Assembly (NCBI GenBank): GCA_000002445.1
Contig: CP000066.1
Coordinates: forward strand, 288,001 to 352,000
Length of the DNA stretch: 64,000 nt
Origin: Trypanosoma brucei
Lineage: Eukaryota
Direction: 5' to 3'
Shown piece by piece: positions 1-43,284 of the stretch. The notes beneath the pieces are model-generated. The model did no database searches. It saw nothing but the letters and a program-made list of their open reading frames with translations, and was not told the DNA's origin. Each line of letters opens with the position of its first letter. The stretch's first letter is position 1. The position numbers and the translations under genes were made by a program.

Positions 1-19
1 GAAAGGTAAGTGTGTGGAA

Positions 20-6000: not shown

Positions 6001-7003
6001 CACCCAAATTGTGTTGGAAAAATACCCTACTCAAAATCAGCGGCCAACGTCTCGTGGAAGTGCGTCCACAACTGGTGTCGTTGTAAACAAGTACCAACTG
6101 TTCCCTCATGATTCGTTACAGGTGGTGCTCGAGTATCAAAGCCAATCAAAGGCAGAGAGGGATGCCTTGGCGTGTGAGGGTGCAACAGTCACAGGTGAGC
6201 TCAATATTCTTTACCTCCCTGCTGACGTTGCTATCGTGAAGCAGCAGCAAAGTGGTGCAGTTGAGGGTAAGAAGCCATTTCATCCACCACCCGTATTGGA
6301 GCTTAAGCAAAGCATTCCCCTTTCCTTGAGCTTTTTGAACCCGTCTGTAACTAGTTCACCCTCATTCCTTTGGTTCTTCCCTGGTCAGCAGATTCATGAC
6401 GGACGTCAGCAGCCCTCGTACGTTCAGAAACTGCGGTTGATGAGCTTGCACCCCTCACCTCTCTCCTTCAAGCTATCTGTGGGAAGCACGGCCGCTAACA
6501 TTGGTTTGGTGCCGGCCCGTTGCAATGCGACACCAGCCCTTGGGTGTCTCAGCGGTGTTGCCGGTGAGCCACGGAAGGCGATTCGCCAGCTAACCTTGGC
6601 AGACGAGACACACAATGTATTCACACGTGAGCGAAAAATACGGGAGATGAAATGTTACATCAAAGATGATAATCCGCCTGCTGTTGGTGGTGTATGTGTG
6701 GAGGGCTGTGCCCCCCAAGACGGGAAAGGGGTTACGCGAGAGTTGCAACCTCGTTCAACACCATATGATAGGGAGAAACTGCTGGTAATTGAAGATGCGA
6801 GCCGCTTCACAATCACCCCCATGGAAGGCATCATTCCCGCGGCCACAAGGGGTGGCCAACCTGGAGTTTTTGAAATTTTGGTGGAGTTTAAAGAACACGC
6901 TAACATGCGCTTCGAGGCTGCATTTGATGTACTAATTGGAACTCACCATGCAAAGGCTTCAAGTTTCTTTCTCCGTGGTGACAGTCGTGAAACAGAGATT
7001 TAG
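20..7003 (+). CDS. Very large (about 2,300 aa) flagellar/ciliary ASH (MSP/PapD-like) repeat protein, hydin/CFAP-like. It may be 5-prime partial, because the frame is open to position 2 of the window.
   Basis: Single 6.99 kb ORF. The first in-frame ATG is at 20; the track start at 14 is GTG. There are many repeats of the beta-sandwich ASH signature (L.FG.v..G......F.v.N....P..F), e.g. LDFGLIEQGRESEASFTVTNDNPIPVSFELQ, VNYGVVPNGSWTTQSFVVSNPF and VRFPTCVDGQRCTQTVLLTNRS. This architecture is typical of hydin, CFAP65, CFAP74, CFAP47 and DLEC1. The family member is not resolved. Confidence 0.55.
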   Translation: MDQPERLVESLVDSSWVVCGTELFADELKDLEHLEEMDEKLASQQQQQQHRSEVVDGCDVLRESYDGSAWSQERRTTSKPRKSPTFSKQKLPDRPSSRASTGGQAKEPSSICSTAASVRVKTEKVVNVAENRGQDLYKQMLQALKQQIRQVREEADLRRSATRRQLRFFSARNVDEYLPSEILRGAPEKHYQWRSEVSGLDYVTEDVWRRTPHQDDAASSPSPSVTDSRSALTILQTPYGSGTSYPAICDFTIDPINFMAEINVALEKNHGVRIVTKESQPPAEEPDPSMLLSNQLCEMLEHQPGPMMDLKEPTWFNTVLPPIASKMEEKWVVDNSEGQMPWSGVGPTKKVKGGGVERLQLAFPPLPARAGQDSRVASGGTATKRAAVGTTTDGCNSSKYTGAGRSAIGDMDKLVRCSATDDTVRLRAKAGTKTTRTVRFTNHCTRHLAMRLQPATHPWLKYSIVKASAGKPLAASSGLCTALDKPVTFFEYIDVMITFEPQTVREPSIAEVLRIGYCVELNIRSGEGAQWHFLEVTVLCDTQQPEFRLVPLEKVADRREEAADTSAEDSSRTTRVNSRASKKDYITTCEFPCTFVFHSFTKYFQLENIGSDAIISLGTSSSCFKITSPLEEDIEIPGGSTVEIAVCFCPLSEAHYDAEQLFVTVRDERNGPVLAKHTFNLRGESALPHIDLLRIGPMELSPFEGDECSSVPQYFLPETTLGEEVVEEVVVRNNCPIAVEYFWQVATVGGGPSGAQLQITPCRGEFLPKQDTRFTVTLKPSVVEPFAAVLNLFLEGLPRIPIEGELGRTVDSCGPPLLPPQNDSRMAELDATKGVLRLLSRSRMVPALPEPEQLRRLMDPCGALKNIMKPQSSECSGVFASGFYLFADPSPPRLMLIPDRFDEGLECLINGENARRVVLRNTSHRLLHFIFDPTPQECPVGVCFPATYDPETVEVRFEPRAGRVPPQGSVPITFFYTLKEVGHHSMSVNCYIPELFELGVESSEGSPPLNLVTEVPCTHALHLSVTGVGPTLIASTHLLDFGLIEQGRESEASFTVTNDNPIPVSFELQDPKKCEPPRFVFLPQSFRLGVGESVEITVYRQAVDITEPQTFFELVVPNGGSIAIETRADIQLQTLVLRETVVNYGVVPNGSWTTQSFVVSNPFASDIPYTVQAVDVPPNIMVQVPPSGVVRAGCVDVQIPIRCAFSVVAAGGGKRAVVSFKNMRTTQEILVELCCEKISELTVAIDLIPVPKVSEGTCCMAYTPPILPLNLPEAPEMEISSYIESVLRNLIELEVLKCCVPRKSRKESFSAAVDDAVTNSVSALDAMASASGAGGTGELVLRPYCPPVHLRALLPHGEPVWSELVVLRITNLTGCHSTYGVNCTQYGFNQTLVDMRRSPTVGRATSKSMTMTASSIAATSKNRGRSRDGTTSRRRDSRRTFVGSPDSRHPFSAGYADGDDTKGRKAVVQPTFWCKNLDGSEQRERERRAALVGAQEALLDGRGCATIFGGPTAGALNPFAESKLPLTLSANLPGRYEETLKVHCGNMPPVHIPVSLELRGRPVLLDSTTAGLLVSDGKEILLMPSVLAGVGRSQRTLRLVNRLPRDVNVSFKIFLTNVTFSVFAVDDNVEANAVTLHLGPVTEEDHRRESEGKGEVAAAPEKFFLPAMGSQLVTIEYAPDANFVGANCSERKWLGGVIITAEYADTSFNDAFIIDEFYRIHPQYRPIDRVVKKSAREGDAAWTKSLLRPAAVLKVRQPVITRPGLIKKSTIIVPELGVASFSKRSGASRRRSLPICSDSFLGDHTAFSDDTTDSDEEGGEASAVIRQTETGRAQRHDVLRSSTSLEGERMELLSFIEKRRQEMMEHSRRYFVPIELELQALCGVAQLTVEPSENLVRFPTCVDGQRCTQTVLLTNRSCAVMAFMLDIPSPSFKLLKARLIFSDKDYKQLEVEDEETLICRKALESLKWCGVEERQKARRVVSLGQSKENTNKGCTQIVLEKYPTQNQRPTSRGSASTTGVVVNKYQLFPHDSLQVVLEYQSQSKAERDALACEGATVTGELNILYLPADVAIVKQQQSGAVEGKKPFHPPPVLELKQSIPLSLSFLNPSVTSSPSFLWFFPGQQIHDGRQQPSYVQKLRLMSLHPSPLSFKLSVGSTAANIGLVPARCNATPALGCLSGVAGEPRKAIRQLTLADETHNVFTRERKIREMKCYIKDDNPPAVGGVCVEGCAPQDGKGVTRELQPRSTPYDREKLLVIEDASRFTITPMEGIIPAATRGGQPGVFEILVEFKEHANMRFEAAFDVLIGTHHAKASSFFLRGDSRETEI

Positions 7004-11854: not shown

Positions 11855-14776
11855 ATGTCGTACCCACACAACTTTGACCACCAGGCGCCACCTCTACAAC
11901 AACTGCAGCAACAAGTACCTCCTCCATTACCACACGGGTCGTGGGCTCCGCAGCCAAACCAGGGTCCAGGTGTACCATTTAATGGTGTGGGTCCGGGGAT
12001 AACGGGAGCTTACGGCGCGGCAAGTGCCTCGGGTAACGCACCTACGGCACAGGATTGGTACTACAACCAATGCCCCACTTCGGCTTCCGGTGCACCTTAT
12101 AGCAATGGGACGAACAACTTCGCCTACACACCCGAGATGCAGTACCAACCGCCGCACGCGCAGCAGCAACAGCAGCAGCAACAACTGTCGTATAAAATTC
12201 CATCGGCGGCGGCAGCCCAACCATCATTCCCAGGCCTCGGTGCGACGGCGGCAAGTTCTCCCCACACGCCCGCTACCGTTGGTCAATATTCTGAACACCC
12301 ACCTGCCGCCCGGCACCACGACGTTTCGGAACGCAACGAGCATCGGGGAATTCCTTGTCAGGAGAACTTACGTTCCTTTCCTGCGCCTCAGTCACGGCAT
12401 AGTGCAGATTCAGAGAGACAGTCCACCGGCCCCCCACCTAATTATGTGCGTCCTCCTCCGAGACGCGCTGTGGACCTCGTTAAGGCGCCTAACCCTAATG
12501 AGTGTGTACCTCCTTCCTCGGACAGTCTCATGTCCAACCACTCTAACCTCCAGTTTCCATCTGGTGCAGATGCCAACATTAGCAACGCAAGCGTAAAGTT
12601 TTTTCGACCGACGATGAAGTGGGTGCCCGCAAGTGCCAATCTCGTGAAGGACAGCCGCGTGCCATTTGGGGCTGTGATTGCCCCTCTTTGCCAACCCGTT
12701 GATCCGCAGGAAGAGGTTCCGTGTGTTTCCGGTTACCCACCCGTTCGGTGTCAGCGCTGCCGAGCTTATGTTTCTTGTCACGCGCGCTTTACAAACATGG
12801 GTCGAAACTGGGTTTGCCCTCTCTGCAGTATGTGCAACGATGTGAGCGAAGAGTACTTCTGCAACTTAGATAATCAGGGCCAGCGGTTGGATAAGATGCA
12901 GCGACCAGAACTTTCACGGGGGAGCGTGGAGTTCGACGTGGATGCATATCCTGAGTATGCGTTACGGAACAGCGATGATGCGGCTCTCGAAGCTAGACCA
13001 CTGCATTATCTGTTTCTGTTGGATGTGTCGGTAAAGGCGGCAACGACATTTCTGTCTGACTATGTGGATGCTTTACTCCGCTCACTTCACGAGATGGCAG
13101 TTCAGTATCCCGAGTGCCGCGTTGCCTTTATCACGTACGCATCAACGCTTCACTTCTATAATGTCCGTCACCCTCGCATGCCCCAAATGATTGTTTCAGA
13201 CGTGTGCAACCCGTTCGTACCCCTTCCCTTCACGAGTCTCTGCTGGCTTACACTCGGCACTGAGTTAGACTTGGTGGATGCGTTCTTGTTGCGTGTACCG
13301 GAGTATGCGAGTGACCTCTGTGAGACCGGCTGCGTGCTGGGTGCTGCGGTGGAGGTGGCAAAACTCGTGTTGTCCGGGCAGCATGGTGGTCGCGTTATTA
13401 TAACCGCGCATAAGGCACCACAAAATGGGATCGGCGCTATCAAACCGCGCGAGCAGCATGTCCTATACGGAACGGAAAAGGAAAAGGAACTGCTGCGCCC
13501 GCTAGACGGATACTGGCAGACGATTGCAACCACGTGTGCAAAGGAGCAGATTTCACTTGATTTGCACATGTTCGCCGATGAATATTGCGAATTGGTGACC
13601 CTCTCACATCCCTGCCACGTCACAAACGGCCGTGTACATCTCTTCTCCAACTACGATAGTCAAACTGACGCCGTTGAACTGCAGGCTGTGCTTGATCAGG
13701 CGCTGTTAGAGGAGGCCGGTTATGCTGGTATACTGCGTGTTCGCTGCAGCACCGGTCTGCGTGTTCAGAGGTATCATGGACATTTCTTCTCCCAAGACAA
13801 GCACGATATGGATCTTGTTCACGTTCAGGGCTCCTCCTCCTTTTATGTTGAATTTGCGCATGAGTCGAAGCCTGATAGCAGTTCTGCCGCATACTTTCAA
13901 ACCGCGTTACTGTACACCACGCGTAGGGGCAATCGTCGGGTGCGCGTTCACTCAGTGCGAATACCGATAGCTTCGTCTATTTCATCAATTTTCGATGGAG
14001 ACACTGTGGCAGTCCTGATGGCGTACATACACCAGGTTATTTCTAATTCGGTGAACAAGGGGTTGAAATACGCTAGGGAACAGATGCATCAGCAACTGTT
14101 ACAACTGTTAACTAGCTACCGCCGTGTTGTTTCACAGAAATCCACATCGGTGCTGCTTATGCCTGGTAGCCTCCGTCTTATGCCACTCTATACGCTGTGT
14201 GTCCTGAAATCCGATGCAATTGCCGAGGGTACTACTGTTCGTATCGACGACCGGGTGCAGAAACTCTTTCACTTACTTACTGTTCCCACTCATCAATGCC
14301 TTTCGTACTTTTACCCCACCCTTTACGCCATGCATTCGTCGATGGAGGAAACGTTCTGTGGGGCGATAAACCCCGAGACCGGTGACTGCGTTATGCCACC
14401 GCGGAAACGACTGTTCTACGAAAGTATTACAACTGACGGTGTGTACATTCTTTGTGATGAGCAGGCACGGTCGGTGTACTTGTGGGTTGGCTCTGCTGTG
14501 ACGCCTGAGATATCTTTGGAGTTGTTCGGAACGGCGAATTCAGCAGAGGTGGGGCGCAGCGTATTCTTCGATCACTTTGGGGAGCGGCTGCGGAACGTAC
14601 TGTGGGCTTGCCTGAATCGTGATGGACGCATGCGGCGTTTGGTGATTTTGCATCAAAAGGACCGGGGTGAGGAAGCTTTCTTTAAGCAACTGAAGGAAGA
14701 AGGTGAAGGAGGAACGATGAGTTACGACCAACTACTGTTGAAACTGCACAAAGCGGTGGGCGAGTTGGCGCTATGA
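11855..14776 (+). CDS. SEC24: COPII coat subunit Sec24.
   Basis: Pro/Gln-rich N-terminus typical of Sec24. Sec23/24-type zinc finger C-x2-C...C-x2-C (CQRCRAYVSCHARFTNMGRNWVCPLC). Trunk, beta-barrel and gelsolin-like region follow (LHYLFLLDVS, FQTALLYTTRRGNRRVRVHS). Size is about 970 aa. ATG at 11855; the track start at 11834 is TTG. Confidence 0.8.
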   Translation: MSYPHNFDHQAPPLQQLQQQVPPPLPHGSWAPQPNQGPGVPFNGVGPGITGAYGAASASGNAPTAQDWYYNQCPTSASGAPYSNGTNNFAYTPEMQYQPPHAQQQQQQQQLSYKIPSAAAAQPSFPGLGATAASSPHTPATVGQYSEHPPAARHHDVSERNEHRGIPCQENLRSFPAPQSRHSADSERQSTGPPPNYVRPPPRRAVDLVKAPNPNECVPPSSDSLMSNHSNLQFPSGADANISNASVKFFRPTMKWVPASANLVKDSRVPFGAVIAPLCQPVDPQEEVPCVSGYPPVRCQRCRAYVSCHARFTNMGRNWVCPLCSMCNDVSEEYFCNLDNQGQRLDKMQRPELSRGSVEFDVDAYPEYALRNSDDAALEARPLHYLFLLDVSVKAATTFLSDYVDALLRSLHEMAVQYPECRVAFITYASTLHFYNVRHPRMPQMIVSDVCNPFVPLPFTSLCWLTLGTELDLVDAFLLRVPEYASDLCETGCVLGAAVEVAKLVLSGQHGGRVIITAHKAPQNGIGAIKPREQHVLYGTEKEKELLRPLDGYWQTIATTCAKEQISLDLHMFADEYCELVTLSHPCHVTNGRVHLFSNYDSQTDAVELQAVLDQALLEEAGYAGILRVRCSTGLRVQRYHGHFFSQDKHDMDLVHVQGSSSFYVEFAHESKPDSSSAAYFQTALLYTTRRGNRRVRVHSVRIPIASSISSIFDGDTVAVLMAYIHQVISNSVNKGLKYAREQMHQQLLQLLTSYRRVVSQKSTSVLLMPGSLRLMPLYTLCVLKSDAIAEGTTVRIDDRVQKLFHLLTVPTHQCLSYFYPTLYAMHSSMEETFCGAINPETGDCVMPPRKRLFYESITTDGVYILCDEQARSVYLWVGSAVTPEISLELFGTANSAEVGRSVFFDHFGERLRNVLWACLNRDGRMRRLVILHQKDRGEEAFFKQLKEEGEGGTMSYDQLLLKLHKAVGELAL

Positions 14777-16206
14777 TATCCATCCGCTTCTTTCCCCCCT
14801 TTTAAAAATTTTTAGGTGTGTTACTGCAGGCCTTCGGTTGCTCGTGCCTGGGCGGATGATGGCACTCTTATATATATATATTCTGCATATGGTCGTTTAT
14901 TTGGCGCATGAGAGGTTTCGTGTGGTTGTCATAATTAGTTGTGTCGCTTACGTCACTCCGCTGAGAGTGACTCCGTGTAAATCGTTTGTTGCGCGACCCC
15001 TTTTTTTCTTTTGTTTTCCCCTTGAAGGTGAGGCGCAACGGTGAACCTTATGGCGAAGGGTGGTCCTTCGCAGCGCTTTCGGAAACTGAATAATAGGGGT
15101 TTATGTGCGTTTTCGTGTTTTTGCTTGCGGAGGTTCAAATTCAAATCAAACTTTGAAGCACCAAAAGAATCGAGAGGGGATATGAGGGGAATCGGAATGA
15201 TAGCGAATAAGCGGGATCATCGCGATGAAAAGGAAGGAGAAAGAGATTTGAAGAAGCGAAACGTGGAAGAATTGAGGGAAGAGGAAGTACTTGTTGTGGA
15301 ATAAATTCAGTACTTAATATAGAGCACTTCACACATGTCTCTTTCACTCCCTTTGCCTCCGCTAGTTTGTTTCTTTTTCCGTATATTCCCTCTTCCCTTA
15401 CCGCTGCACTAACAATAATCCTCGTTAGGTGACTGAAGGAGGGCTTAAGTGCGTGCGTTAATTCACTCTCTTTATCTTGTTGGTAATGGTAATCCGAGGG
15501 AGTGTGAGGAGGTTTAAAACAAGAAATTGTAAACAAAAGAAACTTAAGGGTGAATGGACGAACATTCACCATTTGGGGCACATGAGTATGTGTGCATATG
15601 TTGGTGTTTTGTTAGTAGAAATATTTATATGTACGAAGTTGAGCGGCTGTGCATCTGTCATCCCTTTGTGCGTAAGAGACCGGAAACCAGTGGAGTGAAA
15701 AAGAAGGAGCGTGGAGGGGAGGGGGGAAGAATTGAACCATGGTGTCGGTGACGTGAGAAAATAATTCGCGTTAAGCTTGTTTCACTTATTCTTTCCAACT
15801 TACCTCATGTTTCCTAACTTCTTCCTTTCGTTTCCTTTCTCCGCTTCTTCTCTCGCTCTCAAATAACATTTTGATTTTTTTTTGTCATACTTCCTTTTTG
15901 TTTCTTTTGATTCGCCCACGTAGGATGCAAAATTGGAACCATTGATCTGTTTGTTGTTTCCTTCCTACATTTCCTTTAATCTCTACGCGTCTTCGCGCCG
16001 TTTTATTTCTGTGCTAAAAGTTTTTATCTCAATAGCGGCCCTAAGTGTTCATGCTGTTAAGCGCTAAAGTCTTCTCGTTGGGAGTGAACGTGCAATCACA
16101 GGCTTAGACGAGTGTCAGGAGGAAGCAGCAGGGGAAAAGTGTTAGGTTACGCAAGTCAGTGAAAGCAGGGGTTCCAGATACCTTACTTGACGCGCATATA
16201 TATATA

Positions 16207-16209
16207 CAT

Positions 16210-16259
<50 letters not shown>
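16207..16259. repeat. Compound microsatellite (CA)n(TA)n, about 19 TA units.
   Basis: tacacacacacatatatatatatatatatatatatatatatatatatatatat read directly. Intergenic, about 100 nt upstream of SLX1. Confidence 0.95.
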
Positions 16260-16264
<5 letters not shown>

Positions 16265-16349
16265 TATTTATTTATTGGTGTGGAACTGAGTGTTTCTCTC
16301 TTTTCTTTCTGGTTCGCGTTTGGATCCCGTCTACCCCAGAAAAACGGAA

Positions 16350-17885
16350 ATGGACACCCGGTTTCACTGTGTCTATTTACTCACGAGCTTGGACCCTCAA
16401 TGTGAAGGCGCGCACTACATTGGATACACGGTGAATCCCATCCGGCGCCTTCGGCAGCATAATGGAGAATTGGTGAACGGCGCAAGACGAACAAAGAGAA
16501 ACGGACGGCCGTGGCTGCTTCTAATGTGTGTCTCCGGCTTCGGTGAAGACCGCATAGCGCTCAAGTTTGAATGGTGCTGGCAGAATCCATCGAAGTCCAC
16601 GCGGTTAAAGTCACACGTATCTCAGCTACGGTGTGTTCACAAACTGACCCACGCTGTCGGTGTTCTGCTGCTGCTGTTGCGCACGGAACTTTTCTCTAGG
16701 CTGCAACTGACACTCCACATTTTTGATCGGGAGCACTTTGATAAGGTGATCTCACAATTGCTGTCGGCACTGCCGACAATGGAGCCGCTGGTGGAGACGT
16801 CTCTTCTTCGTGTGGAAAGCACGACTATAGAGCAGTTCCAGACCCAATACATGAATGATGGGCAGTGGGGTGCAGCGGTAGATTACGGCGCTTACTTCAT
16901 GCGAGCACCACCGGGAGCTAACGTCGACGTCAGCAAGCCTATCGTTGGCGGCCAGGATAATACACTTCGTTGCGGCGTCATGCATAACAACTTGTGTGAA
17001 GAAGAAGTCATCAGACAGCATGTAAAGGAGCGAACATTGCTTGAGTCCGGGCACTACCCCTGCTCGTTATGCTCGCTGCCGCTGAGAGCGCCGTACTTCT
17101 TGCGCTGCTCACGCACGCCATTCTGCAGGCTTCGTGCGCACATTGTGTGTCTTGCCATGTGGTTTATCTATGATTCCTCACAACGTGGTGGCGACCCTCT
17201 GGTGAAAGATGCCGGGCCAGCGGAGGTGGCGGAGAACAGCAACGACGCTGCCTGTCAAGTGAATGAGAACTGCTATTCCCTTTCTGGCTGTGGGCCTGTT
17301 GTTGGTGGTATTTTCAATCACGACGCATACACAGACCGAAGAGACGACAACTCGCCGCCGTCCCCACCTTGTCCCCTTCCCACTCAATCATCACAGGCGG
17401 ATGCATCGTTGGCTGCAACGAGTTTGCCGCTTGTACCACGAGCGCCATGCGATTGTCCATTATGTGATGAGGAGTTGCAATGGAGCGCGCTCGTCTACGA
17501 TCTGAAGCGCCGGGTGGCGGTGGAGAAGCGCCGTGCAGAACGTGAAAGGCGGGAGGCTATGGACGCCGAGTTCGCGCAAAGGTTTCAACGCCTTCAGTCT
17601 GAGAGCAACAAAAAATCGACAGCGCGGGAGCGGGGTGCATTGGAGGGTGTGAGACGAAAGCGAAGGCGGCGCGGGGAGGTAGCAGCCAAGTTAACTCAAC
17701 AAACAGCAGTTCGGCACGAGCCCACATCGGGCGCTTCTGGTGATCGTGCTCATTCCGCTCCGCCAGCCCCTTCATGTGGAGGGTTTGATGAAATTCCCGC
17801 CAACGTCACGAACCCCACCGCTCCGCTACATGCTGATGTCTTGCAGGTCACAGAGTTCAACGTCGACGAGTGGCTTAACCACTGA
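16350..17885 (+). CDS. SLX1: Structure-specific endonuclease subunit SLX1 (GIY-YIG nuclease plus C-terminal RING/PHD-like zinc finger).
   Basis: N-terminal GIY-YIG block [12 protein letters not shown]...[17 protein letters not shown]...[12 protein letters not shown]-terminal Cys-rich fingers CSLCSLPL...[14 protein letters not shown] and [15 protein letters not shown] at 16350 directly follows a polypyrimidine tract; the track start at 16290 is GTG. Confidence 0.75.
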
Positions 17886-18100
17886 ACCGTATTGTACTCT
17901 TGTGGGCGGAATGAAGTTGTGACACGCAAAATGAATATTTTTGTGCGTTTGCGTGTAGATCTTGGTGGAGGGGGTTGCTGTCACTTCCGCTTGTCCTGCT
18001 TTTCTTGCTCTTAGTGCTAGGAGGTAGATGCTTTTTCGGTTTTTTTCTTCGTGTGTTTACAGTAAGCAGTTGTTTAGGTGGAATGTGTCATCACCGTCTA

Positions 18101-18178
18101 AACTCAGTTTTTCCCCCCCTCCTTTTTCATCATCCTCCAATTATTTCTTGTCTTTGTGTTTCCGTTCATTCCTCTTAG
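18101..18178 (+). promoter_or_regulatory. Polypyrimidine tract upstream of the Dicer-like gene.
   Basis: tttccccccctcctttttcatcatcctcc...tcattcctctt, a long C/T-rich run about 150 nt upstream of ATG 18319. Confidence 0.5.
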
Positions 18179-18318
18179 ATGCTATTGTTTGTAAAGGCAT
18201 AGTTTTCCTCTTACTTGTGTTTACCTCTTGTTTTCGATTTGGTTTCCGTGTTCTGAGGCACGTCCGCCGAGTAAGGTACGGAATTTAGAATACAAAAAGA
18301 AATATTTGTTACCGTCTA

Positions 18319-21165
18319 ATGATTTTCGGGGAAGATATTGGACCGCAGGACTCGGTGGCCGTGTCATGTGGAAGCACTAACATGGTCAACGACACGCCCA
18401 AAGAGGCCCTTGTGCTGCAGCGACGTGGCCGATGGGTCATGAAGCTGGCAGTTGCCCTTTTTCTCAGCGGAAAGGATCTACAAAGTGAGGGGGAGCTTTC
18501 CATCATGCACAGCGAAATTTGGAGTTACGCCGCGCTCGGCAATGAGGCGGTACGTCGCGGGTACGTTCCGTTAGGCACACCGGTGGCAGGGGCACAGTCC
18601 GTATGGAAGCGAAAGCTCGGTGAGTTGTGGTTGGAAAAAGGTTTTGAACCTTGTATGATTCAACTGGAGCCATACTTTCAGCAAGAGTTTGAACGACTGT
18701 TGGCGAAGGGGATTCTGAAACCGCAATCGGGCACAGAAAAGGATAGTAATTGCAGTGCAGTACGTCCAGTTGACACACCGGAACCTGCGAGACTTTCTTC
18801 ACGAAACAACGGAGCTGTGGAGGAGTTCGCAAAGCCGTTAGCGAGCCTATATGAGGCCTCCTTGCGATATCTGCGTAATGTGGGTATGAAGACGACCGCA
18901 TCAACAAATGGATGGGTCAGCGCTGAGGAGCTCTACTCATACTTAAAAGACCGCAAGCACAGTCTAATAGTGAAGGTGCCCGATGATATCGTGAGCGAAT
19001 GCGATGTTCTTCCCACTACACCAGCTCGTCTCCTCGTAGTGCTTTCTCAACTTGATTTGATTGGACGGCTCCAGTTCCGGTGGGAGCGTAGCTCGAAAGT
19101 TGACGGAAAAAGGGATGGTGAACGTATGTCGCTTGGGGATGAGCAGGTGGAGTGCTCAGTGAGCGTTCGTGCGGCGTGGGCGCACAAAGATAGCTCTCTC
19201 GCTTCCAAGGTAGTGTCTGATCACCCCAAAATGGCGCTTGAGAAGGCGTTGGAGATTTTCAGCCCCTGTAGAGAAATTTATGATTTTGTTGAATCCGTTG
19301 AGCGCTGGGAGGTGGCGGCAAAACTCCACGGGCGTGAGATACCGACGTTTCGCCCCTTTCTGATGCTTGCGGTGGGTGATTCGATCAGAGCCCGTATCCC
19401 CAAAGATCCTGTGCGGCGGGCAGCCGCTCTGTTAGCAAGTAAGGTGACAACTAAGTCGGCCTTTCTTTCTGTCAGTAGGAGCTTTTTAGGTTTGCATCTA
19501 CAGCGCCCAGTGTGTGTTGTGCATTCAAACATTTTTGAGGGGGGTGCCATGCATTTGAGGCAGACTGCGGGTCACGGCCAGCCCCCTAGGGGGGTGCTGC
19601 TCCTTCACTTGAGTGACATAGTTTATAATGCCATTTCAAATGTGGATACAAAACGTGGGGCACTATTTGTCAAATCCGAAATTTTATACTGTGGCGATGC
19701 TTCATCTGTACGCAGCGAGTCAATCAAATCTCTTTGTCTAGAGACTGAGGAGCCTAAAACTTGCACAGAACCCCCTTCCACCAGTGCACTGCTATTTGCC
19801 CGCCTTGCTGAGAAAAGTATCACTTTCAACGTGCCAGCGGAATCGCCGAGGGTCAGTTCGCCAACGTTGGCGAACAGGATTTTAACGTTGAAACGTCCCA
19901 CTCCAACAACAAACGCTACTGAGTTTCTCTGCGGGTTGCGCTCGCTCAGTCATGGGATGGGGAATTTCGCAAGGGAGGCATTCTTCAAAAAGTGGATAGA
20001 AGACATCCTCGCATTATTGAGAGCCAGAAACAACAGAAATGGAAGTGACCGAAGTAATAGTTGCAGAACGCCGACGGAAAAGGTATTGAGCATTACTCCT
20101 GACTGTGTATACACCGACTTCTCTTTGATTATTGCAGGGAAACAAAAAAAAGATAATAGCCGTCCACCTGGTTTGCGGAGTTTATCGAAGGAGTTAATCA
20201 ACGGTATAGCAGAGGGTGGATGCGATCCATTGTACATCAAGAGCAAACAAGAAGGTACGATTGTGGTTTATTTTCAATCCACAGTAAGTGACGAGAGGGA
20301 CGTTACTGAAATTTTTTTCAGCAGCCCGTTGCTGCTTTTGCGTTCTTCATATACCGTAGGAGATAATGAGGGCAAACAAACGGAGGAGGAGACATCAGTT
20401 GCCAATCATCGCTCCGCGCTGTTTTTGCGTGTTGACAAAAGCAGCGACAGTTTTGCCGAGGGAGATACCTTCAGGAGCTTGACGGTTGTTGAATTGGACA
20501 GGGAGCAAAAGAAGGTCGCAGAGGCCTTGCGTAGCGACTGTAACACAGAAGTGACACTACGGTCGGTGGAATTGTGTGTTGATGAGTGGTGTTTGGAGGT
20601 GTTAGTTCCCCTCGAAAAAGTTGTTGAGGAATACATATTTGCCCCAATCAAGCAATGCCTTTATGGTCGTGGAAATTCTGAGTCTCCATTCCTGCTGCTT
20701 TCGGAAGCGGATCAAGCAAAACTCGAGCAGTCTTTGATGGAGCAACTGTTGTTAGCTGTCACTCCGGTGAAGAACGAAGCCCTTGAGTACCTGGGCGATG
20801 CCGTTCTTGATTTCGTTGTCGCCCAGGAAAAACTGAACAGCTGGACAGGGGGCCCCATAGTTGATGCTACGTGCAACGCATCTCTCGCTAAGTGTCTTTT
20901 TCCGCAATTGCGCAATTACTTTGAAATGAAATTGGGGATCTCCAACCAGAAACGACAAGCCGATATGGTGGAAGCCATTTTTGGTGCTGTTGCCATGGCG
21001 TTATGGGTCATTCCCCGCCGAAAAGTTTTGGAATCATCGACGGATACAACGGTGACCGGAGGTGGAGGAGGCGAAACGCCGGCAGCTGGAGGACTCCTTC
21101 CCTTCGCGGCTCTTCTGTCGGTCACTAAGGCATTGATGGATGCGTTGAATATTACCACTCAGTGA
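18319..21165 (+). CDS. DCL2: RNase III-domain protein, Dicer-like (probable nuclear Dicer-like 2 of trypanosomes).
   Basis: The C-terminal region carries the RNase III signature: EALEYLGDAVLDFVVAQEKL with downstream KRQADMVEAIFGAVAMAL (E..E.LGDA ... D..EA..GA). Length is 948 aa. The position between Sec24 and the PP2A-type gene matches my recollection of the T. brucei chromosome 3 DCL2 locus. That is memory, not a search. Confidence 0.5.
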   Translation: MIFGEDIGPQDSVAVSCGSTNMVNDTPKEALVLQRRGRWVMKLAVALFLSGKDLQSEGELSIMHSEIWSYAALGNEAVRRGYVPLGTPVAGAQSVWKRKLGELWLEKGFEPCMIQLEPYFQQEFERLLAKGILKPQSGTEKDSNCSAVRPVDTPEPARLSSRNNGAVEEFAKPLASLYEASLRYLRNVGMKTTASTNGWVSAEELYSYLKDRKHSLIVKVPDDIVSECDVLPTTPARLLVVLSQLDLIGRLQFRWERSSKVDGKRDGERMSLGDEQVECSVSVRAAWAHKDSSLASKVVSDHPKMALEKALEIFSPCREIYDFVESVERWEVAAKLHGREIPTFRPFLMLAVGDSIRARIPKDPVRRAAALLASKVTTKSAFLSVSRSFLGLHLQRPVCVVHSNIFEGGAMHLRQTAGHGQPPRGVLLLHLSDIVYNAISNVDTKRGALFVKSEILYCGDASSVRSESIKSLCLETEEPKTCTEPPSTSALLFARLAEKSITFNVPAESPRVSSPTLANRILTLKRPTPTTNATEFLCGLRSLSHGMGNFAREAFFKKWIEDILALLRARNNRNGSDRSNSCRTPTEKVLSITPDCVYTDFSLIIAGKQKKDNSRPPGLRSLSKELINGIAEGGCDPLYIKSKQEGTIVVYFQSTVSDERDVTEIFFSSPLLLLRSSYTVGDNEGKQTEEETSVANHRSALFLRVDKSSDSFAEGDTFRSLTVVELDREQKKVAEALRSDCNTEVTLRSVELCVDEWCLEVLVPLEKVVEEYIFAPIKQCLYGRGNSESPFLLLSEADQAKLEQSLMEQLLLAVTPVKNEALEYLGDAVLDFVVAQEKLNSWTGGPIVDATCNASLAKCLFPQLRNYFEMKLGISNQKRQADMVEAIFGAVAMALWVIPRRKVLESSTDTTVTGGGGGETPAAGGLLPFAALLSVTKALMDALNITTQ

Positions 21166-21324
21166 TTCATTCTCTTACTGACATTGCTGTTGTCAGGGAC
21201 GGGGAAATTATGTATGTGTGTTTCTTGTGCAACACTTTTGGGCTAACACGAGAAACACATGAACGTAAAAACGGGCCGATTGCAATAACTTAGCGGTGCT
21301 AAGCCATGGCTACTCACCTTAGAT

Positions 21325-21390
21325 ACTTCCTTTCGTTCTTTTTTTTCTCCTGTTAATAAGCCCTTTCTTCCTATCCTTCCACTTTTTGAC
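21325..21390 (+). promoter_or_regulatory. Polypyrimidine tract upstream of the PP2A-type phosphatase gene.
   Basis: tacttcctttcgttcttttttttctcctgttaataagccctttcttcctatccttccacttttt. Confidence 0.5.
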
Positions 21391-21481
21391 AGGCCGTCGT
21401 CGCACTACAAGTAGTTTTTGCTAGTTTAAGTTGTCATCTACTCAAAACCAAACCCACCAGCACATTATATAGGGGCGGGGG

Positions 21482-22453
21482 ATGCCTGCGACTACCTCAA
21501 TTCCACCGGTGACGGCTCCGGGGACCGGTGGGGAGGCGAGCAGTTTTAATGTGGATGAACTGATTCAATACGTGTTGCAGGGGAAACCTCTCAGTGAGCC
21601 GCAAGTGGCCCGACTCTGTCAGAAGGCGAGAGAGGTTTTGGAGAAGGAGGAGAATGTACACACCGTCCGTGCACCCGTCACGGTGTGCGGCGATATTCAC
21701 GGCCAGTTTCACGACTTGCTGGAACTTCTGAAGATTGGTGGACTTCCGCCGGACACTAATTACCTCTTCATGGGCGATTATGTCGATCGTGGGTACTACA
21801 GTGTTGAGACAGTAACTTTGTTACTCCTCTTCAAGATCCGTTATCCGGAGCGCGTTCAGATATTGCGTGGAAATCACGAATCACGTCAGATCACCCAAGT
21901 TTACGGCTTTTACGATGAGTGCGTCCGAAAGTATGGCAGTGCAAACGTCTGGAAGTTGTTAACGGATCTCTTCGATTATTTGCCTCTTGCTGCTGTCGTT
22001 GAGAATGAGATATTTTGCCTTCACGGTGGCCTTTCGCCAACACTTGATAGTCTTGCCCACATTCGCAGTTTAGAACGTGTTCAAGAGGTGCCCCACGAGG
22101 GGCCAATGTGCGACTTACTGTGGAGCGACCCAGAGGACAAGGACGGTTGGGGTATCAGCCCTCGCGGCGCCGGTTTCACTTTTGGCGCCGACATTACAGA
22201 ACAATTTTGTCATAATAACGGTTTGAAAACAATTGCTCGTGCGCATCAGCTTGTGGCTGAAGGGTACAGTTGGGCACATAGCGACAAACTCGTAACAATA
22301 TTTAGTGCTCCAAATTATTGCTACCGTTGTGGCAACCTTGCGGGTCTGCTGGAATTGGACGAGCATATGAACAAATGCTTCTTCCAGTTTGATCCCGCAC
22401 CACGCCGTGGTGAGGCACAGGTGTCAAAAAAGACACCTGACTACTTTTTGTGA
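21482..22453 (+). CDS. PPP-family serine/threonine phosphatase catalytic subunit, PP2A-type.
   Basis: All PPP catalytic motifs are present: [28 protein letters not shown] and H. The C-terminal tail ...[16 protein letters not shown] is PP2A-like (TPDYFL, site of Leu carboxymethylation). 323 aa. Confidence 0.85.
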
Positions 22454-23235
22454 TGAAAAAAAAAATAGATAGATGTGCTGACAAGCCTACTTCTGAAAGC
22501 GTCTAAGTGCGCGCTTCAGTTGTATGCGGATAGAAAAAACGAGTGACATTGCGCCCACTGCGTGTGGATGGACGTGTGGAAGGAGGGGCGATAGTACGTA
22601 TATGAGTGTAGGTGTGTGGTAATTGATTAATTAACGCGAACCATGGCAGTGGAGCAATCACATCCACGCGATGGCGTATGAGGTGGAGAGTGGTTACATC
22701 AAAGATGGGTATAAACATGTAGACGAAGGGCAGAGGGAGGTAAGTGAAAGAAGATATGTTTGCATGTTTATGAAAGTGACGGATGGAAAGAGGGAGAACC
22801 CAGCAGATTCATCAATATTTTTATTTTGATATCAGCGAATATGAGTGTTCAGTGTTTAGCGTTTGTTTGCGGACGCGGGTATCGTCCTCCCCCGTGCTGT
22901 CTCCTTTCTTTTGCTTCCCTTACCGCCCTTCCCTCCCCAGCTTGATTGTTTGGTTTTTTTTTTGTGGGCGTGCGCTTCTTGTTCCGCCCTTCCCTCTTTT
23001 CTTGTCCCCTTCTCCACTCTTCCCATTTAACAAATAGGCGAAGGGCGGGTGCCACTACTCCCTTCCATAGCCTTTTGTTAAGTGCAGCTTACACGCTAGC
23101 CAATGGTGAGAGAAAATGAATGATCCAACAAAACTGAAAGGAACTTACATATCACAAAGGATGCCTGTTTAGTTGGTAATGACGCCTTGTCACGTGGTAG
23201 TGGTGTCAAGATAGGCAAGTGCCGTCAATACACGC

Positions 23236-23290
23236 GAATAATTCTCTTTCTTTCTCTTTCTCTCTTCTCTCTGACTGTTTGGTTTTTGTT
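23236..23290 (+). promoter_or_regulatory. Polypyrimidine tract upstream of RPB10.
   Basis: ctctttctttctctttctctcttctctctgactgtttggtttttgttctt. Confidence 0.5.
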
Positions 23291-23366
23291 CTTAACTCTA
23301 GTTCACTAGCGTCAGCTCAGAGGGTTCGTTTCGTTGCTCGCGCTTTAGCTGTTTTTTTTTGCCCTC

Positions 23367-23621
23367 ATGCTGATTCCAGTCCGTTGCTATTCATGCGGAA
23401 AAGTGGTTGGGCACCTTTACGAACTATACCAGGAACTGCTCAACCAAGACCACACGGAAGCTGAGGCTCTGAACGCACTTCGGTTGAGCCGCATGTGTTG
23501 CCGTCGTATGATTCTTTCTCATATTGATCTTGCAGACGATTTACTGCCGTACAGTGTGCCAGTGGTTGGTTCAATGCCGCTGATAAACCCGGTTCAAGGA
23601 CCGGTGCCACGCCGGCAGTAA
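23367..23621 (+). CDS. RPB10: RNA polymerase I/II/III common subunit RPB10 (RPABC5).
   Basis: MLIPVRCYSCGKVVGHLYELYQELL...ALNALRLSRMCCRRMILSHIDLADDLL aligns nearly residue-for-residue with eukaryotic RPB10 (MIIPVRCFTCGK...RYCCRRML). It has a short C-terminal extension. Confidence 0.85.
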   Translation: MLIPVRCYSCGKVVGHLYELYQELLNQDHTEAEALNALRLSRMCCRRMILSHIDLADDLLPYSVPVVGSMPLINPVQGPVPRRQ

Positions 23622-23781
23622 TGCAACTTATGATTCGCGTAACCGTTTAAACGAATGTGGTTGAGTGGGTTTTGTGTTCGTTTCCCCCGTCCTTGCGGTT
23701 GTTGAAGGTGCTGAAGTGATCTCGAGGCGGTTGAGTAGAATCATTTTCATTGCCCCAACCTTCCCTTCTCGACCCACCGTT

Positions 23782-23797
23782 TGTGTGTGTGTGTGTA
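23782..23797. repeat. (TG)8 microsatellite.
   Basis: Read directly in the spacer after RPB10. Confidence 0.85.
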
Positions 23798-24144
23798 GGA
23801 GGAAAGAAGATAAATAAATGGATGAGGGAGAGATTCAGCGACACATTTTCAGTAGGGACATTGTCGAGCACTCTATTACCTTACAACCAACCAAACAAAC
23901 AAACACGCACATAGATATGCACAACCTCGTCGTCTGCATGTGTTCACACGTATTTGCGTGCTTTTGTTCATGTTCCTCTGCCACTCTCCTCTTCTCTCCT
24001 CTTACTTAACTTTACCTCCCCCTCCCACGCGTGCTCCCTACTGTTGTAGGGGGAAACAACACTCAATTCACAACTGTGTGCCAACAGAGTGCGCTGAGCG
24101 GGAATGTTTGTTGGAATTGTTGTTGCTGTCGCTATTATGGTGTG

Positions 24145-24148
<4 letters not shown>

Positions 24149-24178
<30 letters not shown>
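24149..24178. repeat. (AT)15 microsatellite.
   Basis: atatatat... read directly. Intergenic, upstream of the PPP4R2-like gene. Confidence 0.95.
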
Positions 24179-24180
<2 letters not shown>

Positions 24181-24231
24181 TCCCTTCCAACTGATCTTCC
24201 ATTCCACCCTCTCACATGATTCCTAATCATT

Positions 24232-24852
24232 ATGTCTATTAACTTTTCAGCACCATATTTAGTAACCGAGATGGAGGAGAAAGTGGTGACTTCGCTTCCC
24301 TCCGGTGATACCGCGAGTGGAAGCGGCGAGTCCACCGCCTCACCACCAATTGTTATTTCAGCTGCCGTACCGTACACGGAGGAGGAAAAAAAATTACTGA
24401 CAGAACAACTACGCCGACACCAGCGGCAACAGTCGCAAGGTGATGACGATAGTTCATGGAATGAGACGACGTTACCTTTTATATCTTCCATGGTGGAGAA
24501 GGTGTTGCAGCTAGCCGCGCAAAATCGTGAATCAGATAGCACGAAAGATAGTGGTAGTGGTGATGAGAATAAGCCGCAAGAAAAGGCAAATGCAACTGAC
24601 GACGTCGCCGGTGCAGATGCTGTTTCCAAAGTGGATACGTTTGTTGAGGATAACGACTATGTTTTGGAACAACTACGGCTGCAACCATGGCCTTTCTTCA
24701 CGCTCCCGCGTTTGTGTGAGATCCTTGCCGATCCATACAAGTACAACAGCATTGGTGACAAACTACGTGGTGAGAAGCTCCAGTCAGCCATTCGTCGTTG
24801 TGTCTTGGTGTCGGCCCCACTGAACTGTGATGTAAGGAACAATTCTTCATAG
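24232..24852 (+). CDS. Small acidic protein with a PPP4R2-like conserved block (putative PP4 regulatory subunit 2).
   Basis: PWPFFTLPRLCEILADPYKYNSIGDKLRGEKLQSAIRRCVLVS resembles the conserved PPP4R2/Psy4 core (PFTIQRLCELLTDP..Y...DKFLRG.EK...VVS). This is a from-memory comparison. Confidence 0.45.
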   Translation: MSINFSAPYLVTEMEEKVVTSLPSGDTASGSGESTASPPIVISAAVPYTEEEKKLLTEQLRRHQRQQSQGDDDSSWNETTLPFISSMVEKVLQLAAQNRESDSTKDSGSGDENKPQEKANATDDVAGADAVSKVDTFVEDNDYVLEQLRLQPWPFFTLPRLCEILADPYKYNSIGDKLRGEKLQSAIRRCVLVSAPLNCDVRNNSS

Positions 24853-25331
24853 AGTTGGCCGCATTCAGAGCGTGAGGAAGTTGGAAAAGGGACAAGATTA
24901 GGTCTTTATGTTCTACAAAACGTTTTCGTTGGAGTAGAATAGCACAAACTAGAAGAAAAAAGAAAAGAAAAAAAGACGATACCCCGTGCTTTCGTGCTGT
25001 CATATTGGTGTTGGTTTGTTCCAACGAAGGTTTTATGCCCACCTGTATCATTTCCTCCACGAGGTCTTCCTCTTTGTTTTTCCTTCCCCACTTTTTGATT
25101 GGCTCTTCCGGTTTTTACATTACCTCATGCGCACGTGGTGAAGTTTCCCACACTTTGGAAAGGGAAAGGGGGAACCAATAGCGGAACAATACGTGTTTGT
25201 TTTCCCGTCTTTCCCCCCAAATTTGTGGTGTTGGTAATTTATACCATCTTCACGAATAAGGCGTGTGGAGGAGTGGAGAAGTTTTTAGATACTTAATATC
25301 AGGTTTTAAAGAAAACAAAAATAGTGGAAGT

Positions 25332-42879: not shown

Positions 42880-43284
42880 GGTGGGCAAGGGATAATTCTT
42901 CCCTTCCCTCGTTACTTTAAGCCCTGTTTTATTTCAATCTCCTAGGATTCCTGTTGTACTCTTGCATTTGAGGGGCTATATACAACGTATATACATAAAT
43001 GTCATATCTGTGTCGACTGTTGCCCTGCTCTACTTTTCCCCACTTGTTCGCTTCTGCGGGATTGGCAAGGAACACAAGAGACGCACAAAATTGCTTTCTC
43101 ACGCTGTGGTGCTTCCCCTTTCTGATTCTTCTGGTAACTGCTTGGAACATCATCGCTCCGGCTCGTTTCTGTAATATTTTCTCGATTTTATTTATTTCAC
43201 CCTTCTTCATCGACTCCACTCGGGTCGAGTGAAAGTGGTAGTACAAGTGACACACCCGCGTTGGCCCGCCGCGAGGCGCCACGC

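What the first reader, a model, noticed from the sequence alone, without database searches (positions are those of the whole stretch)
18319..21165. Dicer-like RNase III protein with only one readily recognisable RNase III signature
The C-terminal region carries a clear RNase III catalytic signature (EALEYLGDAVLDFVVAQ ... ADMVEAIFGAV). Canonical Dicers cleave with an intramolecular dimer of two RNase III domains, but I cannot see a second ERLEFLGD-like motif in the upstream 800 aa. Either the RNase IIIa domain is highly divergent, as reported for trypanosome Dicer-like enzymes, or this protein acts as a homodimer. No recognisable PAZ or helicase motifs were seen either. If this is the nuclear DCL2 locus, it is the enzyme that processes repeat-derived siRNAs. 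The microsatellite-rich spacers in this same window are the kind of sequence such a pathway monitors.
Basis: partly seen in the sequence, partly recalled or inferred. Interest (0 to 1): 0.5.

Follow-up and report, generated by a model that had tools for sequence, protein, structure and literature searches.

The report
Trypanosome Dicer DCL2: hidden dead half
This gene is the already-characterised nuclear Dicer-like enzyme DCL2 of Trypanosoma brucei, and its "missing" second RNase III domain is at the very N-terminus, recognisable only by predicted fold and apparently without catalytic residues.

Summary
The ORF at 18319-21165 (+, 948 aa) is real. It is TbDCL2 (Tb927.3.1230), the known nuclear Dicer-like enzyme of T. 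brucei.

Sequence methods find only one RNase III domain, at aa 820-893. Its catalytic residues E820/E823/D827/D882/E885 are invariant in the six Trypanosoma sequences aligned. No PAZ, helicase or dsRBD is detected.

No acidic residue is conserved at any candidate catalytic position of this fold. It carries an invariant basic motif, R35-R36-G37-R38-[WFY]-x-x-K42, plus K97. R38 and K97 appear to sit where the catalytic Asp and Glu should be.

The protein therefore most likely has one live and one dead RNase III domain, so one cleavage centre per chain. Whether the live domain pairs with the dead one or with a second DCL2 molecule is unresolved.

The gene is already known, so interest is modest. 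The suggested link to microsatellites is not supported.

The parts
18319..21165 (+). Complete ORF of TbDCL2 (948 aa plus stop codon)
   Evidence: ORF list. 99% identity to the T. b. gambiense protein. N-terminus matches the Tb927.3.1230 row of PMC4169256 Fig. S5. Synteny and 98.9% DNA identity to FN554966.1.
18397..18708 (+). N-terminal RNase III-like fold (aa 27-130): five helices, apparently a catalytically inert 'RNase IIIa'
18421..18444 (+). Basic motif R35-R36-G37-R38-W39-V40-M41-K42 in helix 1, in the place of the RNase III signature
   Evidence: G37 and K42 are invariant, and positions 36 and 38 are always basic, in 19 homologues from Trypanosoma, Leishmaniinae-type and more distant kinetoplastid-like proteins. 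Best ungapped segment matches put G37 on the Gly and R38 on the catalytic Asp of LGD: Giardia IIIb 7/24 identities, also Aquifex and the protein's own C-domain.
18607..18609 (+). K97: basic in all 19 homologues, inferred to occupy the position of the catalytic Glu (E110 of Aquifex RNase III)
   Evidence: Column statistics. The register is inferred from the G101 (+4) and G108 (helix end) anchors and from W96 on the Phe of D-x-F-E. This is inference, not a computed superposition.
18844..19107 (+). La-type winged-helix domain of kinetoplastid Dicers (PF18177), aa 176-263
   Evidence: Pfam E 1.3e-23, 83 bits against a cut-off of 27.5.
19153..19608 (+). KptA/Tpt1-like domain of kinetoplastid Dicers (PF18176), aa 279-430
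   Evidence: Pfam E 6.2e-61, 205 bits against a cut-off of 25. The same domain is in DCL1-type P0031 and in distant homologues.
19609..20550 (+). Middle region (aa 431-744), poorly conserved, no recognisable domain
   Evidence: No Pfam match at E <= 10. A profile of four orthologues finds nothing in the PDB. Structure not predicted.
20665..21162 (+). C-terminal catalytic RNase III domain (aa 783-948; Pfam core aa 820-893)
   Evidence: Pfam PF00636. Ortholog profile against the PDB: Giardia Dicer 3e-5, C. jejuni RNase III 5e-4, plant DCL3, Drosha.
20776..20826 (+). RNase III signature EALEYLGDAVLDFVVAQ (E820, E823, D827)
   Evidence: Direct reading. Invariant in six Trypanosoma sequences. E823 and D827 are also invariant in the 15-sequence alignment. 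Aligned to ETLEFLGDA of Aquifex RNase III.
20959..20991 (+). Second catalytic motif ADMVEAIFGAV (D882, E885), preceded by invariant K878
   Evidence: Direct reading. Invariant columns.

Best explanation
The ORF encodes TbDCL2, the nuclear Dicer-like endoribonuclease of Trypanosoma brucei. According to the literature it makes siRNAs from retroposon, CIR147-repeat, inverted-repeat and convergent-transcript dsRNA.

Its architecture is: N-terminal RNase III fold, then La-type wHTH, then KptA-like domain, then a variable middle region, then C-terminal RNase III. The DCL1-type paralogue has the same La-KptA-RNase III core.

Shown here: there are two RNase III folds. The C-terminal one has the complete catalytic set. 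The N-terminal one has no conserved acidic residue and instead carries a conserved Arg/Lys cluster.

Inferred: the N-terminal domain is a pseudo-nuclease, comparable to a natural D44R/E110K double mutant. It can contact RNA but cannot bind Mg2+ or cleave, so each chain has one cleavage centre.

Most likely, at about 0.5 and by analogy only: the dead N-domain pairs with the live C-domain as an intramolecular RNase III pseudo-dimer. This resembles the IIIa/IIIb pair of other Dicers and the live/degenerate pairs of trypanosome editing endonucleases. The basic cluster would hold the uncut strand. Cutting both strands would then need two chains or two binding events.

The La-type and KptA-like domains, rather than a PAZ domain, are the candidates for RNA-end recognition. 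This is inference.
For: Identity.

Architecture. The same La_HTH_kDCL, KptA_kDCL and RNase III core is in the 1648-aa DCL1-type protein P0031.

Live C-domain: Pfam, PDB profile hits, and E820/E823/D827/D882/E885 invariant in the Trypanosoma set, with four of the five also invariant across distant homologues.

Loss of catalytic residues: among 19 homologues the strongly conserved polar residues are R35, R36, R38, K42 and K97. The only columns with mostly acidic residues are E76, in helix 3, and position 93, which is Gln in T. brucei and T. congolense.

Register: G37 and R38 fall on the G-D of LGD.

An Aquifex E110K mutant that was crystallised bound to dsRNA is itself among the Foldseek hits (1rc7).

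Function in vivo: PMC2978370 and PMC3447711.
Against: The N:C pairing was not tested.

A single active site per chain does not by itself explain production of duplex siRNAs.

The residue-level register for K97 is inferred from helix boundaries and glycine anchors, not from a printed superposition.

Profile-profile comparison of the N-domain with RNase III domains gives no signal: hhalign E 0.5-0.7. Homology, as opposed to shared fold, therefore rests on the predicted structure alone.

I could not read Patrick et al. 2009 or Shi et al. 2006. I do not know how those authors delimited RNase IIIa, or whether they already noted its degeneracy.
Confidence: 0.75

Rival explanations
1. Homodimeric Dicer. 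Two DCL2 chains pair through their C-terminal RNase III domains, as in bacterial RNase III, budding-yeast Dcr1 or the Entamoeba RNase III. This gives the two active sites needed for a staggered double cut. The N-terminal dead domains pair with each other or stay free. They would act as a non-cleaving dsRNA clamp or ruler, substituting for the missing dsRBD and PAZ.
Against: No dimerisation data are available here. An RNase III fold has one dimerisation face, so this model leaves the conserved N-domain without its most obvious partner. Every full-length family member seen carries both domains, which suits N:C pairing at least as well.
Confidence: 0.35
2. Canonical two-site Dicer. The N-terminal domain is catalytically active despite its divergence, using unconventional residues, so one chain cuts both strands.
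For: The domain has the RNase III fold. Position 93 is acidic in 13 of 19 homologues and E76 in 15 of 19.
Against: No acidic residue is conserved in helix 1, where E37, E40 and D44 should lie. Position 93 is Gln in T. brucei and T. congolense, both RNAi-competent trypanosomes (per the title of Fig. S5 of PMC4169256). The inferred D44 and E110 positions hold Arg and Lys in all homologues. Single substitutions at these positions inactivate RNase III enzymes; this is established knowledge, and the E110K mutant appears.
Confidence: 0.06
3. The N-terminal 'RNase III fold' is a prediction artefact, or a generic helical bundle unrelated to RNase III, and the protein is simply a one-domain RNase III enzyme.
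For: There is no sequence-level similarity to RNase III in Pfam, PDB hmmsearch or hhalign. The domain is short (105 aa) and lacks the two N-terminal helices of canonical domains.
Confidence: 0.04
4. It belongs to the mitochondrial RNA-editing RNase III class (KREN/KREPB) rather than to Dicer-like enzymes.
Against: The two Pfam domains specific to kinetoplastid Dicers score E 1e-23 and 6e-61. The C-domain profile scores Giardia Dicer at 3e-5 but editing MP61 at only 0.92. The sequence is that of Tb927.3.1230, experimentally the nuclear Dicer.
Confidence: 0.01

Closest known systems
TbDCL2 (Tb927.3.1230) and its orthologues in other kinetoplastids
   Same: It is this gene. The N-terminus matches the published Tb927.3.1230 row, it is 99% identical to the T. 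b. gambiense protein, and the gene neighbourhood is the same. Orthologues in T. congolense, T. grayi, T. theileri and Leishmaniinae-type proteins share both RNase III folds.
   Different: Nothing differs at gene level. I could not check whether the primary papers already describe this.
TbDCL1-type kinetoplastid Dicer (P0031, 1648 aa)
   Same: It shares the La_HTH_kDCL, KptA_kDCL and single Pfam RNase III core. Its N-terminal block (VGEKxxKAxAS...FPxGDxxKLTNxxRVLxS) aligns weakly to RNase III (hhalign E 0.014) and to the DCL2 N-domain (E 0.12).
   Different: DCL1 carries an extra Prim-Pol (PPL4) domain and a long C-terminal extension. According to the literature it is cytoplasmic. Its N-domain keeps a Glu next to the signature Gly, where DCL2 has Arg.
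Canonical Dicers and Drosha (Giardia Dicer 2ffl, human Dicer, Drosha)
   Different: The two folds are about 650 residues apart at opposite ends of the chain, not adjacent. The first fold lacks all catalytic acids. No PAZ, platform, helicase or dsRBD is detected.
Trypanosome RNA-editing endonuclease pairs (KREN1-3 with degenerate KREPB partners)
   Same: The principle is one catalytic RNase III domain combined with a degenerate RNase III fold, giving one active site. The degenerate partners are good structural matches.
   Different: In the editing complex the two folds are on different polypeptides in the mitochondrion and make a single-strand nick by design. DCL2 is a nuclear RNAi enzyme with kDCL-specific domains, and its C-domain is not close to the editing nucleases in sequence.
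Single-domain non-canonical Dicers (budding-yeast Dcr1, Entamoeba EhRNaseIII) and inactive RNase III folds (Mucor R3B2 core, mitoribosomal mL44)
   Different: Yeast Dcr1 has dsRBDs and no second RNase III fold. R3B2 and mL44 are not fused to a live RNase III domain.

Membership tests
Kinetoplastid Dicer-like proteins (kDCL; TbDCL1/TbDCL2) | La_HTH_kDCL (PF18177) and KptA_kDCL (PF18176) domains | tested here: met
   E 1.3e-23 and 6.2e-61, both far above the gathering scores.
Kinetoplastid Dicer-like proteins (kDCL; TbDCL1/TbDCL2) | A catalytic RNase III domain with the ExxE...D / D..E residues | tested here: met
   PF00636 at aa 820-893. E820, E823, D827, D882 and E885 are invariant in the Trypanosoma alignment. 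PDB profile hits.
Kinetoplastid Dicer-like proteins (kDCL; TbDCL1/TbDCL2) | Sequence identity with the gene named TbDCL2 (Tb927.3.1230) and a syntenic position on chromosome 3 | tested here: met
   Match to the Tb927.3.1230 row of Fig. S5 of PMC4169256. Gene ID given as TbDCL2 in PMC2978370. 98.9% DNA identity and the same gene order as FN554966.1.
Kinetoplastid Dicer-like proteins (kDCL; TbDCL1/TbDCL2) | Nuclear localisation and requirement for CIR147, retroposon and convergent-transcript siRNAs | not testable with these tools
   Taken from the literature only (PMC2978370, PMC3447711).
Canonical Dicer (class with helicase, PAZ, RNase IIIa, RNase IIIb, dsRBD) | Two RNase III folds in one polypeptide | tested here: met
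   C-domain by sequence. N-domain by predicted structure and fold search.
Canonical Dicer (class with helicase, PAZ, RNase IIIa, RNase IIIb, dsRBD) | Both RNase III domains carry the catalytic acidic residues | tested here: not met
   No conserved acidic residue at any candidate catalytic position of aa 27-130. Arg/Lys are conserved instead.
Canonical Dicer (class with helicase, PAZ, RNase IIIa, RNase IIIb, dsRBD) | PAZ/platform, helicase and dsRBD modules | tested here: not met
   No Pfam match at E <= 10. The middle-region profile finds nothing in the PDB. This was tested by sequence only, so a PAZ-like fold in aa 431-744 is not excluded.
Canonical Dicer (class with helicase, PAZ, RNase IIIa, RNase IIIb, dsRBD) | Intramolecular pairing of the two RNase III domains | not testable with these tools
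The single-sequence full-length model was unusable, pLDDT 33.
RNA-editing RNase III proteins (KREN/KREPB) | RNase III domain closer to editing endonucleases than to Dicers or bacterial RNase III | tested here: not met
   MP61 scores E 0.92 against Giardia Dicer 3e-5 and bacterial RNase III about 1e-3.
Homodimeric single-domain RNase III / yeast Dcr1-type Dicers | One catalytic RNase III domain per chain | tested here: met
Homodimeric single-domain RNase III / yeast Dcr1-type Dicers | Homodimerisation through the catalytic domain, plus a dsRBD | not testable with these tools
   No multimer prediction was available. No dsRBD was found by Pfam.

The most novel reading that the evidence does not exclude
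Kinetoplastid DCL2, and perhaps DCL1, would be a 'half-site' Dicer. Its RNase IIIa has been converted into an obligate pseudo-nuclease. The former metal-binding pocket is lined by an invariant Arg/Lys cluster (R35, R36, R38, K42, K97) that grips an RNA phosphate instead of cutting it. Measured double-strand dicing would then require two chains, or two oppositely oriented binding events. RNA-end recognition would be delegated to the La-type and KptA-like domains. This mechanism would differ both from intramolecular two-site Dicers and from yeast Dcr1, and it may not have been described for this well-studied enzyme.
Probability: 0.3. Interest if true: 0.55.

Novelty: already known. Interest (0 to 1): 0.3.

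Why it matters
TbDCL2 initiates nuclear RNAi in T. brucei. Knocking it out changes the sensitivity of the RNAi tool widely used in this parasite; that point is from my memory of Patrick et al. 2009, which I could not read. Identifying the gene adds nothing new.

The structural reading may be useful. It explains why motif and HMM scans see only one RNase III domain, and it locates the second fold precisely. It also predicts that this second fold is a phosphate-binding pseudo-nuclease. That turns 'how does a PAZ-less, helicase-less Dicer cut both strands and measure length?' into a small set of point-mutant and oligomer-state experiments. The same logic would apply to the DCL1 paralogue and to the orthologues in Leishmania (Viannia) and Crithidia.

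Tried and rejected
1. Single-sequence AlphaFold2 of the full protein gave pLDDT 33 and was unusable.

2. Sequence-level detection of the second domain failed in every form:
- Pfam at E <= 10 on the whole protein and on 17 N-domains.
- hmmsearch of N-domain profiles against the PDB. The only hint was Drosophila Dicer-2 aa 1219-1252 at E 0.72.
- hhalign of N-domain against C-domain alignments, E 0.5-0.7.

4. Two further word-indexed homologue searches added nothing. The full-length alignment returned the same five proteins, and the N-domain alignment returned none. The exhaustive representative search supplied the distant homologues instead.

5. The afdb50 fold library was not available.

6. Patrick et al. 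2009, Shi et al. 2006, and two reviews whose PMC ids I gave from memory, were not held. The published delimitation of RNase IIIa in TbDCL2 could therefore not be checked.

7. The exact window protein is not in the gene-position index. The T. b. gambiense orthologue was used for synteny instead.

9. The KptA-like region has no sequence match to solved Tpt1/KptA structures, so I make no statement about its catalytic residues.
Full report
OBSERVATION

An ATG-initiated ORF of 948 codons occupies exactly 18319-21165 on the + strand.
- EALEYLGDAVLDFVVAQ at aa 820-836 (window 20776-20826).
- ADMVEAIFGAV at aa 881-891 (window 20959-20991).

Pfam reports a single RNase III match: PF00636 at aa 820-893, E 7e-6, 27.1 bits, just above the gathering score of 27. 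A weaker PF14622 hit covers the same stretch. At E <= 10 there is no PAZ, helicase or dsRBD.

A profile of five orthologous C-terminal regions hits solved RNase III domains. The best are Giardia Dicer (3e-5), C. jejuni RNase III (5e-4), Arabidopsis DCL3 and Drosha. The trypanosome editing protein MP61 scores only E 0.92. E820, E823, D827, D882 and E885 are invariant among the six aligned Trypanosoma sequences. Four of these five are also invariant in a 15-sequence alignment with distant homologues. No second ExLExLGD or ADxxEA motif exists in the protein.

IDENTITY

The protein is 99% identical to a T. brucei gambiense DAL972 protein. It is 30-38% identical to proteins of T. congolense, T. grayi and T. 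theileri.

Its first 59 residues, including the diagnostic G8 and D25, match the row labelled Tb927.3.1230 in Fig. S5 of the T. rangeli genome paper, PMC4169256. PMC2978370 gives Tb927.3.1230 as TbDCL2.

Window 14304-25166 is 98.9% identical over 10.8 kb to T. b. gambiense record FN554966.1. The gene order is the same: Sec23/24-like, SLX1-like, DCL2, PP2A-like phosphatase.

So this is the known nuclear Dicer-like enzyme. According to the literature it is needed for snoRNAi and for siRNAs from CIR147 repeats, retroposons, inverted repeats and convergent transcription units.

Pfam finds La_HTH_kDCL at aa 176-263 (E 1e-23) and KptA_kDCL at aa 279-430 (E 6e-61). Both families are defined on kinetoplastid Dicers.

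A 1648-aa DCL1-type protein (P0031) has the same La-KptA-RNase III core plus a Prim-Pol domain. It too has only one Pfam RNase III hit.

THE SECOND RNase III FOLD

Alignment of orthologues shows a strongly conserved N-terminal block at aa ~30-125. Its pattern is RRGRWVxKLAxALFL ... HSExW..LG.E ... WK..LG ... GF..C..L.PYF.

An exhaustive profile search found 35 family members. They include 1250-1500-aa Leishmaniinae-type proteins and shorter, more distant proteins of 600-1050 aa. The block recurs in those that are complete at the N-terminus.

Sequence methods see no relation to RNase III:
- Pfam.
- PDB hmmsearch.
- hhalign, E 0.5-0.7.

I then predicted aa 26-130 with AlphaFold2 using a 21-sequence alignment. 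The result was mean pLDDT 97.2 and pTM 0.86, with all five models at 96.7 or above. The model has five helices: aa 27-50, 57-67, 70-79, 89-107 and 109-129.

The domain sits at the extreme N-terminus, about 650 residues from its presumed partner.

THE N-TERMINAL FOLD LOOKS CATALYTICALLY DEAD

Column statistics over 19 homologues show conserved basic residues:
- R35 in 18 of 19.
- Position 36 always basic.
- G37 invariant.
- Position 38 always Arg or Lys.
- K42 invariant.
- Position 97 always Lys or Arg.

Only two columns are mostly acidic. E76 lies in helix 3. Position 93 is Gln in T. brucei and T. congolense, both of which the T. rangeli paper groups with the RNAi-positive trypanosomes.

The best ungapped segment matches to Giardia IIIb (7/24 identities), Aquifex RNase III and the protein's own C-domain all put G37 on the Gly, and R38 on the catalytic Asp, of the LGD signature. 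The following 'EG-LS' loop-helix also matches.

The register for the fourth helix is my inference, not a printed superposition. It rests on the conserved small residue at +4 (G101), the Gly that ends the helix (G108), and W96 on the Phe of D-x-F-E. On that register, K97 falls on the catalytic Glu (E110 in Aquifex numbering) and S94 on D107.

Whichever register is used, no conserved carboxylate is available to bind Mg2+. By established knowledge of RNase III enzymes, single substitutions at D44 or E110 abolish cleavage. An E110K mutant crystallised with dsRNA appears among the Foldseek hits (1rc7). The domain should therefore be inert. It may still be able to contact RNA through its basic cluster.

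MECHANISM

Shown:
- Two RNase III folds.
- One complete catalytic centre.
- La-type and KptA-like domains between the two folds.
- No detectable PAZ, helicase or dsRBD. This was tested by sequence only; the middle region aa 431-744 matched nothing.

Inferred:
- One cleavage centre per chain.
- I favour, at about 0.5, an intramolecular N:C pseudo-dimer. RNase III folds work as dimers. Both folds co-occur in every full-length family member seen. T. brucei already uses live-plus-degenerate RNase III pairs in its editing endonucleases. Such a unit would nick one strand, so duplex siRNA production would need two chains or two binding events.
- The main rival, at about 0.35, is a C:C homodimer of the bacterial or yeast Dcr1 type. 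In that model the dead N-domains serve as a non-cleaving dsRNA clamp or ruler.

I could not discriminate between these two.

The editing-class alternative is rejected.

The idea that the window's microsatellite-rich spacers are what this pathway monitors is not supported. Near the gene there are only (AT)32 and (TA)15 runs. [quoted passage not shown]

NOVELTY AND VERDICT

The gene, its role and its family are known, and Pfam even has dedicated kDCL domain models. The added value here is threefold:
- The precise location of the cryptic second RNase III fold.
- High-confidence structural support for that fold.
- The finding that its would-be active site is replaced by a conserved Arg/Lys cluster.

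I could not read the primary TbDCL1 and TbDCL2 papers, so I cannot say whether this degeneracy has been noted before.

Interest is modest at 0.3. The most novel reading not excluded is a 'half-site' Dicer whose dead domain is a phosphate clamp. I give it a probability of about 0.3.

Noticed in passing
window 16290-17885 (+): The upstream neighbour is an SLX1-like structure-specific endonuclease subunit: GIY-YIG domain E 6e-11 and SLX1_C E 4e-7. The listed ORF starts at a GTG. The T. b. gambiense gene model is 511 aa, so the true start is probably an internal ATG.
   Followed up: partly
window 21482-22453 (+): The downstream neighbour is a 323-aa PP2A/PP4-type serine/threonine phosphatase catalytic subunit, Metallophos E 6e-42.
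   Followed up: no
window 1-64000: All ORFs of 400 aa or more lie on the + strand. Cumulative GC skew rises monotonically across the window. This is what a single trypanosomatid polycistronic transcription unit looks like. The other large ORFs, for example 14-7003 (2329 aa) and 43261-47562 (1433 aa), were not examined.
   Followed up: no
window 16196-16259 and 24148-24178: These are intergenic dinucleotide microsatellites, (AT)32 and (TA)15.5. They are the only tandem repeats within 14-26 kb. There is no evidence that they are RNAi targets.
   Followed up: partly
P0031 (DCL1-type homologue, not in the window), residue 966: D966 is the first Asp of the motif TIDFDG, inside the Pfam Prim-Pol (PPL4) domain at aa 891-1039. 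PMC2978370 describes a dominant-negative TbDCL1 allele D966G. If P0031 is TbDCL1, that mutation lies in the primase-polymerase-like domain, not in an RNase III domain. P0031 has the same 1648-aa length, but its identity was not verified.
   Followed up: partly
T. rangeli DCL2 rows in Fig. S5 of PMC4169256; P0006 (760 aa): In RNAi-deficient T. rangeli the retained dcl2 gene model starts at MNVGKMARIHSELW. It therefore lacks helix 1, with the RRGRW..K motif, of the N-terminal RNase III fold. P0006, whose sequence closely resembles those T. rangeli rows, lacks the whole N-domain. This could be decay of the domain or a mis-called start.
   Followed up: no
Leishmaniinae-type homologues P0010-P0015 (not in the window): Their C-terminal RNase III signature reads E-[LQV]-[RSC]-E-F-Y-G-D, with Tyr replacing the usual Leu before Gly-Asp. 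The proteins are 1300-1500 aa long, with Ala/Ser/Pro-rich inserts. The N-terminal basic motif is RRRGR[FY]VIK.
   Followed up: no
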